Source of the DNA: Octopus sinensis
Taxonomy: Eukaryota
DNA: 64,000 nucleotides
Assembly (NCBI RefSeq): GCF_006345805.1
Contig: NC_042998.1
Span: 184,078,001 to 184,142,000, forward strand
Direction: 5' to 3'
The translations under genes and the position numbers were made by a program. Below are positions 1,883-24,879 of this stretch, piece by piece (the first letter of the stretch is position 1; the number at the start of each line of letters is the position of its first letter). The notes beneath the pieces are model-generated. The model was given only the letters and a program-made list of their open reading frames with translations. It did no database searches and was not told the DNA's origin.

Positions 1883-3910
1883 ATCATCATCATCATCATC
1901 ATCATTTAGCGTCCGTTTTCCATGCTAGCATGGGTTGGACGGTTCTACTGGGGTCTGTGAAGCCAGAAGGCTTCATCAGGCCCAGTCAAATCTGGCAGTG
2001 TTTCTACGGCTGGATGCCCTTCCTAACGCCAACCACTCCGTGAGTGTAGTGGGTGCTTTTACGTGCCACCCGCACTGGTGCCAGACAGAGCTGGCAAACG
2101 GCCACGAACGGATGGTGCTTTTTATGTGCTACCGGCACGAGGGCCAGGCGAGGCTGGCAACGGACACGAAACGGGGCGGTGCTGGCAACGGTCGCGAAAC
2201 GGAAAGTTCTCTTACATGCCACCGGCACTGGTAACACATCTGCAATTTCCATTGATCGATTTCGATTCTGATCCTCACTTGCCTCAATGGGTCTTCACAA
2301 GCAGAGTTTCGACATGCCACCGGCACTGGTAGCACATCCGCAATTTCCATTGATCGATTCGATTCTGATCCTCACTTGCCTCAACACGTCTTCACAAGTA
2401 GAGTTTTGTGTCCCAAGAAGGGAAGTATGCATACGTAGGCTGGCTCCATCCCATGTAGAAGGCCACGGGTTGTGGACTCACTTGTCCTGCCGGGTCTTCT
2501 CGCGCACAGCACACTTCCAGAGGTCTCGGTCTCTAGTCATTTCCTCAGTGAGACCTAAAGTTCGAAGGTCGTGCTTCACCACCTCGTCCCAGGTTTTCCT
2601 GGGTCTGCCTCTTCCACAGGTTCCCTCAACCGCTAGGGTGTGGCACTTTTTCACACAACTATCTTCATCCATTCTCGCCACATGACCATACCAGCGCAAC
2701 GTCTCTCTTGCACACCACAACTGATGCTTCTTAGGTCCAGCTTTTCTCTCAAGGTACTTACACTCTGCCGAGTGTGAGTACCGGCATTACACATCCATCG
2801 GAGCATACTGGCTTCATTTCTAGCGAGCTTACGCATATCCTCAGCAGTCACGGCCCATGTTTCACTGCCATGTAGCATGGCTGTTCGTACACACGCATCA
2901 TACAGTCTGCCTTTCACTCTGTGCGAGAGGCCTTTTGTCACCAGCAGAGGTAAGAGCTCTCTGAACTTTGCCCAAGCTATTCTTACTCTAGCAGTTACAC
3001 TTTCAGCACACCCACCCTCGCTGCTGACTTGGTCACCTAGGTAACGGAAACTATCAACTATTTCTAGTTTTTCTCCCTGGAAAGTGACGGAAGTTGGTCT
3101 CAGAGCATTTTCAGTGTTTATTGTTCCTGAGCATCTGCCACATACAAAAACCATCTTCCTAGTTAGCCTTCCTTTGACATTGCTGCATCTCTTATGTGTC
3201 CATAGCTTACACTTGGTGCATCTTATAGAGTTTCTACCTACACCTTTTCTACAGATCGAGCAGGGCCATCTACCTGAAGGTGTTTGTGATTTGTCTACCT
3301 TCCTACTGATTACGACTTTGGTTTTAGCTAAATTGACTCTGAGGCCCTTCGATTCTAATCCTTGTTTCCACACCTGAAACTTCTCCTCCAGTTCTGATAG
3401 CGACTCAGCAATTAGAGCAAGGTCATCAGCATAGAGGAGCTCCAAGGGCATCCTTGTCTTGAATTCCTCCGTTATTGCCTGGAGGACTATGATAAATAGG
3501 AGGGGGCTGAGTACTGAGCCTTGGTGGACCCCTACCTCTACCCGGAATTCTTCACTGTACTCATTTCCAACCCTCACCCTACTAGCGGCGTCCCTATACA
3601 TGGCCCGCACAGCTCTCACTAACCATTCATCTATCCCTAGTTTTCTCATTGCCACCAGATAAGGGATCGGGGGACCCTGTCGAAGGCTTTCTCCATGTCA
3701 ACAAAAGCCAGGTACAGGGGCTTATCTTTGGCTAGGTATTTCTCCTGCAGCTGCCTTACCAGGAATATAGCATCAGTAGTACTTTTCCCTGGCACAAACC
3801 CAAACTGCATCTCATCTAAACTAACTCTCTCTTAATTAGTTGGCTATGACCCTCTCCGTAACCTTCATCACCTGGTCCAACAGCTTGATACCTCTGTAGT
3901 TATTTGTATC
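1883..3910 (-). mobile_element. RTE-clade LINE (family A), 5'-truncated young copy
   Basis: RT motifs NYRGIKLL, QFGFVPGKSTTDAIF, FVDMEKAFDRV, GVHQGSVLSPLLF, LLYADD; C-terminal RWYGHV...GRGRPRKTW; 3'UTR ends in palindrome plus (GAT)n. Confidence 0.95.
2478..3910 (-). pseudogene. RTE reverse transcriptase ORF (RT + PHD-like finger + C-terminal region), frameshifted
   Basis: ORFs 2651-3655 and 2478-2720 plus upstream frame 3655-3910 join into one RTE protein after 1-bp shifts near 3652 and 2700. Confidence 0.9.
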
Positions 3911-4506: not shown

Positions 4507-5768
4507 TCATCATCATCATCGTTTAACGTCCGCTTTCCATGCTAGCATAGGTTGGACGATTTTGACTGAGGGCTGGCAAACCAGATGCCTGCAACAGGCT
4601 CCAATCATGATCTGGCAGAGTTTCTGCAGCTGGATGCCCTTCCTAATGCCAACAACTCCGAGAGTGTAGCGGGTGCTTTTACGTGCCACTGGCATGGGGG
4701 CCAGTTTGGTGGTACTGGCAGCAACCTCACTTGAATCTTTTTACACATGTCACCAGCACAGGTGCCAGTAAGGCGATGCTGGTAATGACCACACTCGAAT
4801 GGTGCCTTTTACATGCCACCGGCACGGAAGCCAGTTAGTCGCTCTGGCAACGATCATGCTCGATTGGTGCTCTTGGTTCCCTACTAACATGGATGCCAGT
4901 CATCGAATTTGAATTTGATTTTGATTTTGATTTCACTTGGCTCAAAAGGTCTTTGCAAGCAGAGTTTTAGTGTCCAAAGAAGGAAAAGGTACGCATAAGT
5001 GGACTGGTTATGCTCCTGGCATTCGCCACGAGGTTATGGTCTCATTTGGCTTGCTGAGTCTTCTCAAGCACAGCATATTTCCAAATGTCTCGGTCACTAG
5101 TCATTTCCTTGGTGAGGCCTAATGTTCGAAGGTCGTGCTTCACCACTTCATCCCAGGTCTTCCTGGGTCTACCTCTTCCACAGGTTCCCTCAACCGCTTA
5201 GGGTGTGGCACTTTTTCACACAACTATCCTCATCCATTCTCGCCACATGACCATACCAGTGCAGTCGTCTCTCTCACACATCACATCTGATGCTTCTTAG
5301 GTCTAACTTTTCTCTCAAGGTACTTACACTCTGTCGGGTATGCACACTGACATTGCACATCCATTGGATCATACTGGCTTCATTTCTTGTGAGCTTACGC
5401 ATGTCCTCAGCAGTCACAGTCCATGTTTCACTGCTGTGTAGCATGGCTGTTCGTACACAAGCATCATACAGTCTACCTTTTACTCTGAGCGAGAGGCCCT
5501 TTGTCACCAGAAGAGGTAAGAGCTCTCTGAACTTTGCCCAAGCTATTCTTATTCTAGCAGCTACACTTTCAGCGCACCCTCCCCGGCTACTGACTTGGTC
5601 ACCTAGGTAATGGAAGCTATCAACTACTTCTAGTTTTTCTCCCTGTTCTCTGCACATTTTCAGTGTTTACTGCTCCCGAGCATCTGACACATACAAAAAC
5701 TATCTTCCCAGTTAGCCTTTCTTTGATATTACTGCACTTCTTATGTGTCCATCGCTTACACTGAGTAC
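4504..5768 (-). mobile_element. RTE family A copy, 5'-truncated, small internal deletion
   Basis: ORF 5274-5657 (EVVDSFHYLGD...LHSSETW) and CTQCKRWTHKKC finger remnant; same 3'UTR and tail. Confidence 0.92.
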
Positions 5769-18364: not shown

Positions 18365-19120
18365 TGTACCAGCATTGTGTCCAGCAATGACAGCAGCAAC
18401 AGAACCAGTGATAGGGCCTGCAGTGGTGACAACAGCATTGGTAGTGATAATGACAACAACAGCTGTAACACCACCAGTACAGGGATAGAAATGCAGAAAT
18501 ATGTGGGGTCTTCAGGTGGTTTGTTCAAGCATCATCTTAGCAATCACAGGTCTTCTTTAGGATACCAGAGAGATGCAACATCATATTTCTGGCAAGCTAT
18601 GTATAGCATTTAAAAGATGAGGGTACACCATATATAATTAAATGGTGGCTTCTAGAACAACTGGAATCATATTATAACTAAAACAAATGGTGTAAGCTTT
18701 GTTTTGTTGAAACCTCAAGAATCCTGATAAATGCACTTAACTTAGGGGCCTTTTAAACTTCAAAACAGAGATGTTTAGTCAGTGCCTTCATGAGAGGAAA
18801 TTTGTGTTTGAAACATGGAATTCGCCATTTTCTGACAAGGTAAATGCTGCTATCTTCAGACATCTTTGGCAGGTATATCATAGACAAAAGTGGAACTGAT
18901 ATAAGGGGGATAACTACCTCATCAAAGGTTTTAACAGAAGCGTTTTGTTCCAAAGTTTGTTCATGAAATTAACTGACCATGATGATTTTCCTCTCTCCAG
19001 TTGTAGAGAGGTTATGTGCCTCCAGTCATTTGAGTCTAACATGTCACCTATACAGTTAAGAGCTTTATAGGTGCAAAACCAATGGTGACTCTGACCATCC
19101 ATAACAAGCAACCTTCAAAG
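18365..19120 (+). mobile_element. Penelope-like element 3' fragment (GIY-YIG endonuclease C-half + 3' region)
   Basis: KYVGSSGGLFKHHLSNHRSS...LKDEGTPYIIKWWLLEQ...WCKLCFVE...NFKTEMFSQCLHERKF; homologous to 26565-27390. Confidence 0.8.
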
Positions 19121-19140
19121 ATATATATATATATATATAT

Positions 19141-20603
19141 CATCATCATCATCATCTCGTTTAACGTCCTCTTTCCATGCTAGTATGGGTTGGACGGTTC
19201 AATTGGGGTCTGGGAAGCCCGAAGGCTGCACCAGGCCAGTCAGATCTGGCAGTGTTTCTACAGCTGGATGCCCTTCCTAACGCCAACCACTCCGTGAGTG
19301 TAGTGGGTGCTTTTTATGTGCCACCGACACAGGTGCCAGACGAGGCTGGTGAACGGCGATGCTCGGATGGTGCTTTTTATGTGCCACTGGCACGGAGGCC
19401 AGGCGAGGCTGGCAACAGCCACGATCGGATGGTGTTTGTTACATGCAACCAGCACGGAGGCCAGTCGATGCGGTGCTGGCTACGCCCACATTCAGATGGT
19501 TCTCTTATGTGCCACCGGCACTGGTACCACAACTACAAATTCCATTGATGTTGATCGATTTCGATTTTGATTTGATTTTTTGATTTTCACTTGCCTCAAC
19601 AGGTCTTCACAAGTAGAGTTATGTGTCCCAAGAAGGAAGGTATGCACAGGTGGACTGACTACGTCCCAGGTAGGGGCTATGGGTTATGGCCTCACTTGTC
19701 CTGCTGGTTCTTCTCACGCACAGCATACTTCGAAAGGTCTTGGTCTCTGGTCATTTCCTCGGTGAGACCTAAAGAGTGAAGGTCATGCTTCACCACCTCG
19801 TCCCAGGTTTTCCTGGGTCTACCTCTTCCACAGGTTCCCTCAACCGCTAGGGTGTGGCACTTTTTCACACAAATATCTCCATCCATTCTTACCACGTGTC
19901 CATACCAGTGTAGACGTCTCTCTTGCACCCCACAGCTGATGCTTCTTAGGTTCAACTTTTCTCTCAAGGTACTTACACTCTGTCGGGTATGAACACTGAC
20001 ATTACATATCCATCAGAGCATACTGGCTTCATTTCTTGCAAGCTTACGCATATTCTCAGCAGTCACGGCCCATGTTTCACTGCCATGTAGCATGGCTGTT
20101 CGTACACATGCGTCATACAGTCTGCCTTTTACTCTGAGCGAGAGACCTTTGGTCACCAGCAGAGGTAAGAGACCTCTGAACTTTGCCCTGGCTATTCTTA
20201 CTCTAGCAGTTACACTTTCAGCACACCCGCCCCCACTACTGACTTGATCACCTAGGTAATGGAAACTATCAACTATTTCTAGTTCTTCTCCCTGGAATGT
20301 GGCGGAAGATGGTCTCTGCATATTTTCAGTGTTTATTACACCAGAGCATCTTCCACATACAAAAACTATATTCCTAGTTAGCTTTCCTTTGACATTGCTG
20401 CACCTCTTATGTGTCCATAGCTTACACTTGGTGCATCTTATAGAGTTCCTACCTACGCCTTTTCTATAGATCGAGCAGGGCCATAAACCTGAAGGCTTTT
20501 GTGATTTGTCTACCTTCTTACTTATTAGGACTTTGGTTTTAGCTAGGTTGACTCTAAGGCCCTTCGATTCTAATCCTTGCTTCCACGTCTGAAACTTCTC
20601 CAC
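19141..20603 (-). mobile_element. RTE family A copy, 5'-truncated
   Basis: ORFs 20013-20699 and 19692-19967 carry the finger and C-terminal region; TGA at 20013; full 3'UTR. Confidence 0.93.
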
Positions 20604-20621
20604 ACACAAAATATAAAGATT

Positions 20622-20694
20622 AATCACAAACCCGGTTTCATTGTTACCACTTACGTAATACTTATGTAAATGTCTGCAATTCATCAGTGTGATT
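20622..20694 (-). ncRNA. Type I hammerhead ribozyme, apparently intact
   Basis: AAUCACA-CUGAUGA-AUUG...CAAU-GAAAC-CGG-GU-U-UGUGAUU: 7-bp perfect stem I, complete core, 4-bp closing stem II, minimal stem III. Confidence 0.78.
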
Positions 20695-21139
20695 GTCATA
20701 GCAAAATATGATTTGCAGAACTATACACGAGACATCCGCATGAGATTAAACATGCATATAGTTCTACTGCTTACATTCTGGCATTTGCGGAATTTTCTTG
20801 AGAACAATCTTTTCTTAGTGTTCAGACCATATGGGGTCTACCTCTAGCATAATGGATGTCCACTTAGTGGTCATCCCTCTTATATGTATGTAATATAATT
20901 TTTCTGAATCTTCAGATTTTTCAATATGCTAGACCACTGGTTTTAAATTGAAATATTAATCAAATTAATATTCAATTTTCACCCTTATCATTTAAATTTA
21001 ACAGGCAAAATTCACTGCAGAGAATTATTTTCTGCAGAATTATTTCTGGTATTTTGGTGTGCCAAAATGAAGACTTTTGAAATATATATATATGTATATA
21101 CACACACTCATGTAGATATATATATATACAATGGGATTC

Positions 21140-21402
21140 CTTCAGATTTCATCTTGAATATCACAAAGCTTTTGGCAAAAATTAATGCAGTATCTCTGGT
21201 CAATGCGTTCGGTGAAAATGAATGTGCAATACATGTCTGTACTAAAGACATCACAGTTAGGAACTCTTGTGGACTATTGGCACAAACATTTTCACACATG
21301 TGCAGAAAGGATGGCATCACCTTCCACTCAAGGGATTTTTCTCACTTGGCATTAATTTTGATGGGAAAAAATAAAATCAGATACTTTTTGAATGCACCTC
21401 AT
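21140..21402 (-). mobile_element. mariner 5' end (TIR + start of transposase)
   Basis: Minus strand TATGAGGTGCATTCAAAAAGTATC TIR-like end, then TERIDQRYCINFCQKL, a mariner N-terminal HTH-like motif. Confidence 0.72.
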
Positions 21403-21524
21403 ATGTGGAAGGAGCACACAGACTATCAGACATCCTTTTCATTTGATTCCTCATCAGAATATATATTCATGAATATTGTAGTCATGTTGAATAGATCCAT
21501 ATGTAAGGTTTGTGAGGAGATATA

Positions 21525-21923
21525 CTCTTTTACTCTTTTACTTGTTTCAGTCATTTGACTGCGGCCATGCTGGAGCACCGCCTTTAGTCGAGCAAATTGA
21601 CCCCGGAACTTATACTTTGTAAGCCCAGTACTTATTCTATCGGTCTCTTTTGCCGAACCGCTAAGTGACGGGGATGTAAACACACCAGCATCGGTTGTCA
21701 GGCAATGCTAGGGGGACAAACACAGACACACATACATATATATATATATATACATATATACGACAGGCTTCTTTCAGTTTCCATCTACCAAATCCACTCA
21801 CAAGGCATTGGTCGGCCCGGGGCTATAGCAGAAGACACTTGCCCAAGATTCCACGCAGTGGGACTGAACCCGGAACCATGTGGTTGGTTAGCAAGCTACT
21901 TACCACACAGCCACTCCTGTGCC
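21525..21923 (-). mobile_element. SINE family B, young full-length copy
   Basis: Reverse complement of 16007-16448 with high identity. Confidence 0.92.
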
Positions 21924-23514
21924 TATATAACTCACATTCTCTTGCAATTTTTACTGTTTCATAAAAAATTCTACAGGCTACCCTTTAAATGATAATTTTT
22001 TCAAAATTCTGACTACAATCTGTATTTGATGATATTATACTGTAATTATTAATTTACCATATGAAAACGACTTTTCATGTAAATAAATAATTCAAGTTTG
22101 AAAGAATTAATTGATAAACAAAAAGAAAAAAACGACAGGTGTTCCCAACAGAAATAAAAATCAATAATAAAGCAAAATTATGAACAAACCTTGAAAGAGC
22201 CATTTAATAACAAAGTTGTTAAATTCATTTTCAGTTCAAATTGTTTCAAGAGGTGACAACTACCACCTGGTGTCTAGCAAAATTCTATATTTCTGCAGTA
22301 ATTTTGGCATCTCATGAAAAAGAAGTTTAAACTTAGATTTAAATTTTACAGTTTTATATGCTAAGTGCTCTTTTACGATGTAGTTCCTTCAGTTTAACAC
22401 ATTGTCTCAGATCAGGTCACTTGCTATGTGCACCAATATAAAGAGGTTAATTGGGACAAACAAATTATATTATGTCCTTCCTTACTTGTGTATGCAAAGA
22501 AGATGGATACCAATTTTGGAATTTCACACAAATAAAATTGAGAGATATGGTTACTATTTCAAGCAGGATGATGTATTATCAAAAGTGCTTTTTCATACTG
22601 AGGATGGAGATTTGAACCACTGAAATGGAAAGTGAGGACTGATAATAACAAGTGGCCTGGGGAAGAGTGAGTGATGACTGATAGTGCAGAAAAAATTGAA
22701 GATAGATGTATTGGTTACAAAGAGATCTGATGAAATCTGTTATACATAGACCTTATAATAGTTATGAGTGGTAGAGGGATGAGGATGGTGGTAAGGATTT
22801 TGACTGTGGGTAGGTCCTGTCTTATGTCTCATTATACAAGTTGCATGAATGATGGGAAGATGACTGATAGGGAGATGAGTTGCAGGGAAATGAGTAAGGG
22901 AGATGCTTTTCTCATTGTAGCTATGTTCGTCTCTCTGACTGACATGAGAACATTGACTGCAATGTGCTATTATCGTATACAGAGGAGAGTAATCTCTCTT
23001 GTCTGATATAACAGGAACCACTTATATATTCCTATAGCTAAACTGACTTTGGAAATCTTGTGGTCAGAGGAGACATCATTTATATCATATACATATATAT
23101 ATAAGAGAAAAGAGAGACAGAGATAGATAGATAGAGAGAGAGAGGGAGAGAGTGAGAGAAAGGTGGGGATATATTTATAAACTCAGTTGCTTCTTTTTAG
23201 GTCGATGTGAGGAGTGGGGGAGGACATGTTTCTATAGGAACCAAAATCTAATGATGACTAATTTATTGAGTTGTTATTGATTCTTGTTAGCATAAAATTT
23301 TGGAAGGAAATTTGCTTTTTTCATCATAAACATGGTGACATTTTCCTTGATGCACTGATAACAACATTAATCCCTGCAGATGTGCACATCAGCATGCATC
23401 TGTACTACATGGAATAAACACATTCATATTACCCGATACGTAGATGTGCTGTGGAAGTCTAAAACGTGGGGACGTTTTCCAAAAACATGTTTGGTGCAGT
23501 CATGTATCGATATT

Positions 23515-24628: not shown

Positions 24629-24630
24629 CA
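24190..24630. repeat. Two-copy ~220-bp duplication of a compound microsatellite
   Basis: tctatgtatctatctctctatctctatatttctct...cacatgcatatataaatacat recurs near 24290 and 24510. Confidence 0.75.
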
Positions 24631-24670
24631 AATAAATGAAAGAATGGAGTTGAACAACAAATTAACAAAA

Positions 24671-24774
24671 TTCCTTTATTTTATTCTCGACATATGTTTC
24701 GAAGGCTGCATATTCCTAATTTCGAAGGAATAAGGGGTGCATTATGCCGCCTTCTCATCAGGAAAAGTAAGGAA
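24671..24774 (-). ncRNA. Type I hammerhead ribozyme, apparently intact, in a ~195-bp module flanked by (TA)n
   Basis: UUUUC-CUGAUGA-GAAGGC...GCCUUC-GAAAC-AUAU-GUC-GAGAA; distal stem I UUCCUU/AAGGAA; GUC triplet, predicted cut between 24689 and 24688. Confidence 0.85.
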
Positions 24775-24819
24775 CTTATGTCAGCATCAAGATGCACAAA
24801 AACTTTTAGATTTAACAGT

Positions 24820-24879
<60 letters not shown>

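What the first reader, a model, noticed from the sequence alone, without database searches (positions are those of the whole stretch)
20604..20880. Second intact hammerhead of an unrelated family, downstream of a PYGLN motif
Seen: minus strand AAUCACA-CUGAUGA-AUUG[...]CAAU-GAAAC-CGG-GUU-UGUGAUU with a perfect 7-bp stem I and a long stem II (AUUUAC/GUAAGU inner helix). No similarity to the 24.7-kb ribozyme outside the core. About 125 nt upstream on the same strand lies CCATATGGTCTGAAC (P-Y-G-L-N, 20820-20834). Known: PxGLN is a typical ending of Penelope-type GIY-YIG domains. Inferred: 3' end of a different Penelope-like family. The GUU triplet and A-U first pair of stem II are tolerated but suboptimal.
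Basis: partly seen in the sequence, partly recalled or inferred. Interest (0 to 1): 0.72.

Follow-up and report, generated by a model that had tools for sequence, protein, structure and literature searches.

The report
Decayed hammerhead retrozyme copy, Penelope-style insertion
This is one old copy of a scattered, protein-free 533-base repeat that carries a hammerhead ribozyme motif and was likely pasted in by a Penelope-type jumping gene's enzyme; the supposed protein ending beside it is a chance reading of the wrong strand.

Summary
The type I hammerhead motif is real (minus strand, 20622-20694; 0 of 150 shuffles) and unrelated to the 24.7-kb one. The PYGLN reading is wrong. It lies on the family's antisense strand, sits two codons after a stop, and appears in 1 of 86 arms. 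No PLE protein similarity lies nearby. The motif belongs to a non-coding, strongly folded 533-nt unit with at least 181 exact motif matches genome-wide, a non-LTR retrozyme by DNA anatomy. Copies carry a Penelope footprint: 54 of 90 loci are inverted, 114 of 140 outer 3' ends fall at two sites, and 103 of 140 abut microsatellites. In 30 of 31 head-to-head pairs the arms end at different sites. The window copy spans 20606-21086, is 4-5% diverged and has a two-pair stem III, so it is predicted to cleave only as a dimer. Cleavage, expression and the helper element were not shown. This scan found the same kind of element, and the two-site pattern, on other DNA of this genome.

The parts
20622..20694 (-). 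Type I hammerhead motif: 7-bp stem I, CUGAUGA/GAAA core, long stem II with inner hairpin, two-pair stem III with near-palindromic loop, GUU triplet; predicted cut between 20629 and 20628
20606..20767 (-). Arm A of the insertion: unit positions about 197-358 (187 if junction microhomology is counted), holds the hammerhead; 5.2% from the family majority
20769..21086 (+). Arm B of the insertion: unit positions 380-533 then 1-180, crossing the unit-to-unit joint; 3' end runs into (TA)n; 3.8% from the family majority, with one internal deletion
20768..20777 (.). Head-to-head inversion junction with about 7 nt of microhomology
20820..20834 (-). The 'PYGLN' letters: antisense reading of a small hairpin in arm B; not coding
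21081..21130 (+). (TA)n-type microsatellite at the 3' end of arm B, the likely target site
19140..20600 (-). Neighbour, not part of the unit: 5'-truncated LINE fragment (RTE-like, named from recall) with one stop and a (GAT)n tail ending in (AT)n; it abuts the 3' end of arm A

Best explanation
The hammerhead motif sits in one decayed, two-armed copy (20606-21086) of a dispersed, non-coding 533-nt repeat, a non-LTR retrozyme family that was likely inserted by the enzyme of a Penelope-like element. Shown: the unit, its multi-copy spread, head-to-tail continuity past one unit, head-to-head arms, two fixed 3' end sites used one per arm, microsatellite targets, no ORF. Inferred: a source locus with two or more units was transcribed; two hammerheads paired their short stem III loops to cleave as a dimer and release unit-length RNA, possibly circularised; a Neptune-type PLE protein nicked both strands of a (TA)n target and primed reverse transcription at two internal sites of the RNA, giving two 5'-truncated arms joined head to head. 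The window copy has one hammerhead and is predicted to be inactive by itself.
For: Unit of 533 nt; 25 of 90 loci have an arm longer than one unit and 1 of 90 more than two units. 181 exact matches of a 17-nt stem I/core motif against 1 for the reversed control. Folding: natural copy z -4.98; family majority folded as a circle z -8.0 sense, -6.2 antisense. Named structure: 92.8% of cells paired; first pair of stem II is A-U in 29 and G-C in 15 of 51 copies. 54 of 90 loci hold both orientations; 114 of 140 outer 3' ends lie in two bins covering 13.5% of the unit; 103 of 140 are followed by a microsatellite against 358 of 2445 background windows. 30 of 31 head-to-head pairs with both ends at a fixed site use different sites (p 1.5e-8; one locus counted twice). 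These match published PLE anatomy: inverted 5'-truncated copies, a tail at one end only, microsatellite bias (PMC8557442 passages); both-strand cleavage and two internal RT starts (PMC11167929 main text). RT plus GIY-YIG ORFs of 775-883 aa with a CxxC linker exist in this genome, and many end 70-130 nt past a hammerhead-like motif in (TA)n. Stem III segment self-duplex -8.1 kcal/mol; single-molecule active fold probability 7.5e-6.
Against: No autonomous partner found: the unit has no significant DNA match to 30 GIY-YIG loci (best E 0.02). Cleavage was not tested, and 8 of 9 predicted Xenopus retrozyme dimers did not cleave in vitro (bioRxiv 10.64898/2026.07.22.740005). The covariation is essentially one inherited subfamily change, and RNAalifold returned no consensus structure. 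Core positions changed at 4.3% against a median 5.4% per other non-CpG site, so no clear selection on inserted copies. 5' ends are not enriched at the cleavage site (2 observed, 1.5 expected). The window copy's own two 3' ends (unit 358 and 180) miss both fixed sites; only 3 of 51 pairs do that. The unit is longer than the 170-400 nt described for invertebrate retrozymes (PMC7229834 section 14), and long tandem arrays were not seen. Loci were chosen by similarity to the hammerhead region, which biases 5' ends.
Confidence: 0.82

Rival explanations
1. The unit is the long terminal repeat (pLTR) of an autonomous PLE whose coding copies are rare or lost, so the copies are ordinary 5'-truncated PLE ends.
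For: The insertion footprint is that of PLEs; PLE ends carry hammerheads (PMC4209133 passages). Only 90 loci, with about 1.5 kb of flank, were examined.
Against: The unit runs into itself head to tail with no ORF between (25 of 90 loci). tblastn of 60 PLE ORF pieces hit 5 of 90 loci, none joined to a unit's 5' end. Longest stop-free stretch 5' of any of 157 arms is 210 aa.
Confidence: 0.1
2. One reading: the PYGLN letters are the C-terminus of a GIY-YIG endonuclease and the hammerhead is its downstream 3' repeat.
For: The five codons and the 126-nt spacing are really in the window.
Against: Antisense in the family, separated from the hammerhead by an inversion junction, N private to this copy (1 of 86), stops just upstream; no tblastn hit in window 19000-23000 and no PxGLN in 60 ORF pieces.
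Confidence: 0.01
3. The family is a retrozyme, but this copy (or the family) was inserted by a LINE: arm A was copied by template switch from the adjacent RTE-like cDNA, or by twin priming of the L1 kind.
For: The LINE fragment starts 6 nt from arm A on the same strand; both ends of this copy are atypical; the two arms tile one unit with gaps of 21 and 6-16 nt, as twin priming would leave.
Against: In other head-to-head loci the arms overlap in sequence and end at two fixed sites, which twin priming does not predict. The LINE ORF piece lies within 200 nt of an arm end in only 3 of 90 loci, the window included, as a shared microsatellite target would give. No poly(A) or (GAT)n tail on the unit.
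Confidence: 0.07

Closest known systems
Metazoan non-LTR retrozymes (coral, mussel, axolotl: PMC7229834; vertebrates: bioRxiv 10.64898/2026.07.22.740005)
   Same: Non-coding, low-GC (33%), strongly self-paired unit with one type I hammerhead per unit, head-to-tail continuity, many solo copies, PLEs in the same genome. Short stem III as in the axolotl type that works as a dimer.
   Different: 533 nt against 170-400 nt; mostly dispersed partial or two-armed copies, not long arrays; extended stem II; GUU triplet; circular RNA and cleavage not shown here.
Penelope-like elements (Neptune and Poseidon clades) and their pLTR hammerheads (PMC4209133, PMC8557442, PMC11167929)
   Same: Inverted 5'-truncated arms, (TA)n targets, two fixed 3' ends downstream of the hammerhead with the extension on one arm only, palindromic short helix III.
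   Different: No RT-EN ORF; the two end sites are about 100 nt apart against a 30-40 nt tail; PMC11167929 saw no strand difference in RT start in vitro, whereas here the two arms almost always use different sites.
Non-autonomous Chlamys PLE derivatives such as MRC1 (PMC8557442 passage)
   Same: Non-coding, head-to-tail, PLE-type insertion structure.
   Different: Those resemble an autonomous family at their 3' ends and mostly lack hammerheads; no such partner was found here.

Membership tests
Type I hammerhead ribozyme | CUGANGA and GAAA core, UH site, three stems with open stem I | tested here: met
   Rfam models not matched
Type I hammerhead ribozyme | Self-cleavage at the predicted site | not testable with these tools
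   Monomer fold predicted unfavourable, dimer helix plausible
Non-LTR retrozyme | Repeat unit with a type I hammerhead in each unit, arranged head to tail | tested here: met
   two hammerheads one unit apart in L006, L032, L040
Non-LTR retrozyme | No protein coding | tested here: met
   Longest stop-free stretch 52 aa sense, 76 aa antisense
Non-LTR retrozyme | Low GC, highly self-paired unit | tested here: met
   GC 0.33; z -4.98 and -8.0
Non-LTR retrozyme | Unit length about 170-400 nt as first described | tested here: not met
   533 nt; the 2026 preprint says consensus length varies widely, so this is a range, not a strict criterion
Non-LTR retrozyme | Active locus with two consecutive complete hammerheads | tested here: inconclusive
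   The window copy has one. Both copies in L032 have a broken GAAA and both in L040 an altered core; only 90 loci were read
Non-LTR retrozyme | Expressed as circular RNA | not testable with these tools
   Only contigs were available
Autonomous Penelope-like element | RT plus GIY-YIG ORF upstream of the terminal repeat | tested here: not met
PLE-mobilised element | Inverted arms, fixed 3' ends, microsatellite target | tested here: met
PLE-mobilised element | Sequence shared with the pLTR of an autonomous PLE | tested here: inconclusive
   No match in 30 of 150 listed GIY-YIG loci

The most novel reading that the evidence does not exclude
A PLE enzyme copies a circular retrozyme RNA from two different fixed start sites, one for each nicked target strand, and the window copy records two such enzymes on one circle, each stopping where the other began.
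Probability: 0.2. Interest if true: 0.62.

Novelty: new member of a known kind. Interest (0 to 1): 0.3.

Why it matters
As a single copy it is ordinary transposon debris. As a family it adds a cephalopod-type example of a retrozyme whose insertions look like those of Penelope elements, which supports the proposed but unproven idea that PLE enzymes mobilise animal retrozymes. The two end sites, used one per arm in 30 of 31 pairs, give a defined RNA substrate for asking how PLEs build inverted ends. The scan has already noted that pattern in other families of this genome, so this is a further instance and not a first sighting.

Tried and rejected
Rfam: no match at gathering threshold, and only a sub-threshold Hammerhead_3 hit. 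RNAalifold gave no consensus structure. First pair count used a mis-registered structure string and is discarded (corrected). Expression: no RNA holder listed. Contigs of 4 of 24 listed runs were laid; pieces of the unit and end-to-start joints appear, but the run kind is a guess and the same joints exist in genomic DNA, so nothing follows on expression or circularity. Autonomous partner: no significant match between the unit and 30 GIY-YIG loci. Linear cleaved monomer as template: 5' ends not enriched at the cleavage site, and 80 of 113 arms cross it. A 5'-end cluster at unit 375-400 is not significant (p 0.17). Exact tiling of the unit by both arms is seen in 1 of 31 two-arm loci (the window); by my arithmetic about 0.1 such cases are expected by chance, so it is only a hint. 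Target-site duplications could not be read because both flanks are microsatellites. Earlier findings by sequence returned nothing relevant and none near this place. Literature searches listed no paper on octopus hammerheads or retrozymes, and the O. vulgaris repeat paper has 0 occurrences of 'hammerhead' or 'ribozyme' in its main text; repeat libraries, subscription papers and the preprint's supplements were not seen and may hold this family.

Full report
Observation. The motif is as described: minus strand 20694-20622, seven-pair stem I, CUGAUGA and GAAA core, stem II closed by four pairs with an inner hairpin, a two-pair stem III with a 3-nt loop, and a GUU site. The descriptor finds it once in the window and in 0 of 150 shuffles. 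Rfam does not call it, and its lowest-energy fold is not the hammerhead. It shares nothing with the 24.7-kb element beyond the core.

Family. The window's genome (G000, 2.72 Gb) is called an octopus in earlier scan notes; I did not test that, though the nearest clusters of one of its PLE proteins are often molluscan. Searches with the finding and with one unit returned 40 of 40 scored candidates each. Exact patterns gave 39, 70 and 181 matches against 0, 4 and 1 for reversed controls; at 6-7% divergence that suggests several hundred copies (my arithmetic). Of 120 loci fetched, 30 were duplicates and were dropped, leaving 90. They map onto a 533-nt unit that runs into itself head to tail. The unit is 33% GC, has no ORF over 76 aa, and folds far better than shuffles. 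Median divergence of 85 arms from the majority is 6.3%, minimum 3.3%; the window's arms are 3.8% and 5.2% (on the first 68 loci). The family looks old and no longer expanding.

Ribozyme across copies. In 51 copies the named structure is paired in 92.8% of cells. The first pair of stem II is A-U in 29 and G-C in 15, so the window's A-U is a subfamily trait; this is one inherited change, not many. The stem III loop is five bases in the window's subfamily and four in another, both near-palindromic. Published work says such short palindromic helices impede monomer cleavage and permit a dimer (PMC4209133 passages). Computed here: monomer active fold probability 7.5e-6, self-duplex -8.1 kcal/mol. 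Core positions are only slightly better kept than the rest, and RNAalifold found no consensus structure.

PYGLN. The segment belongs to the same unit, about 100 nt downstream of the cleavage site, and reads PYGL only on the antisense strand. The window copy is inverted at 20768, which puts it upstream of the hammerhead on the same strand. PYGLN occurs in 1 of 86 arms, with stops just upstream. PLE endonucleases sampled from this genome end in PxLN, and none of 60 ORF pieces hits window 19000-23000. The coding interpretation fails.

Insertion footprint. 54 of 90 loci hold both orientations, and in 51 both outer ends are 3' ends. 114 of 140 outer 3' ends fall at unit 490-515 or 55-100; 103 of 140 run into a microsatellite, against 14.6% of background windows. 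Following a lead from earlier scan notes, I tested whether paired arms use different sites: 30 of 31 do (51 pairs in all, 20 with an end elsewhere; L133 counted twice). This fits PLE anatomy as published: inverted truncated copies, a tail at one end, microsatellite bias linked to the CxxC linker (PMC8557442 passages), and both-strand cleavage with two internal RT starts (PMC11167929 main text). RT-GIY-YIG ORFs with that linker are present in this genome. No helper with shared sequence was found among 30 loci.

The window copy. Arm A (minus, 20606-20767) and arm B (plus, 20769-21086) together cover one unit with gaps of 21 and 6-16 nt. Both 3' ends are atypical. A truncated LINE fragment separates arm A from the (AT)n tract at about 19140. 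Later LINE insertion with loss of the arm's end, template switching, or double priming on one circle could each give this; the data do not choose among them.

Comparison. It works like, and by DNA features is, a metazoan non-LTR retrozyme (PMC7229834 passages and section 14; bioRxiv 10.64898/2026.07.22.740005 parts 1 and 3 of 5 and passages; its supplements not seen). It is longer than first described, and circular RNA and cleavage are untested. It is not an autonomous PLE. Five literature searches listed no octopus retrozyme paper, but the scan has noted several such families in this genome, one with a unit of about 534 nt that may be this family or a sister (not resolved).

Verdict. A real hammerhead motif in a decayed copy of a retrozyme family that was likely mobilised by PLE enzymes; new member of a known kind; interest 0.3.

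Noticed in passing
L064 2290-2900 (+) (G000:C4): A second, older hammerhead-bearing non-coding family with a 456-nt period; 40 of 40 scored candidates match at about 71-83%. It is weakly similar to this family around the hammerhead (0 of 200 shuffles), so the two may share an ancestor.
   Followed up: partly
L065-L090 and other GIY-YIG loci of G000: Many near-identical PLE copies, several with 781-aa open frames; their 3' ends carry a variant hammerhead-like core with a four-base palindromic loop, mostly 70-130 nt before (TA)n.
   Followed up: partly
window 20013-20720 (-): The AUG inside the hammerhead core is in frame with the adjacent LINE ORF fragment, giving a 235-aa stop-free stretch. 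Probably chance; the LINE piece has a stop further on.
   Followed up: no
window 24630-24825 (-): The 24.7-kb hammerhead has the look of a plain PLE 3' end: hammerhead, short tail, then (TA)n.
   Followed up: no
window 2651-3697 (-), 5274-5666 (-): Two more fragments of the same LINE family as at 19140-20600. No host gene exon was evident among the 38 stop-free stretches of 130 aa or more.
   Followed up: no
L133: The same two-armed insertion appears twice about 950 nt apart, likely a local duplication.
   Followed up: no
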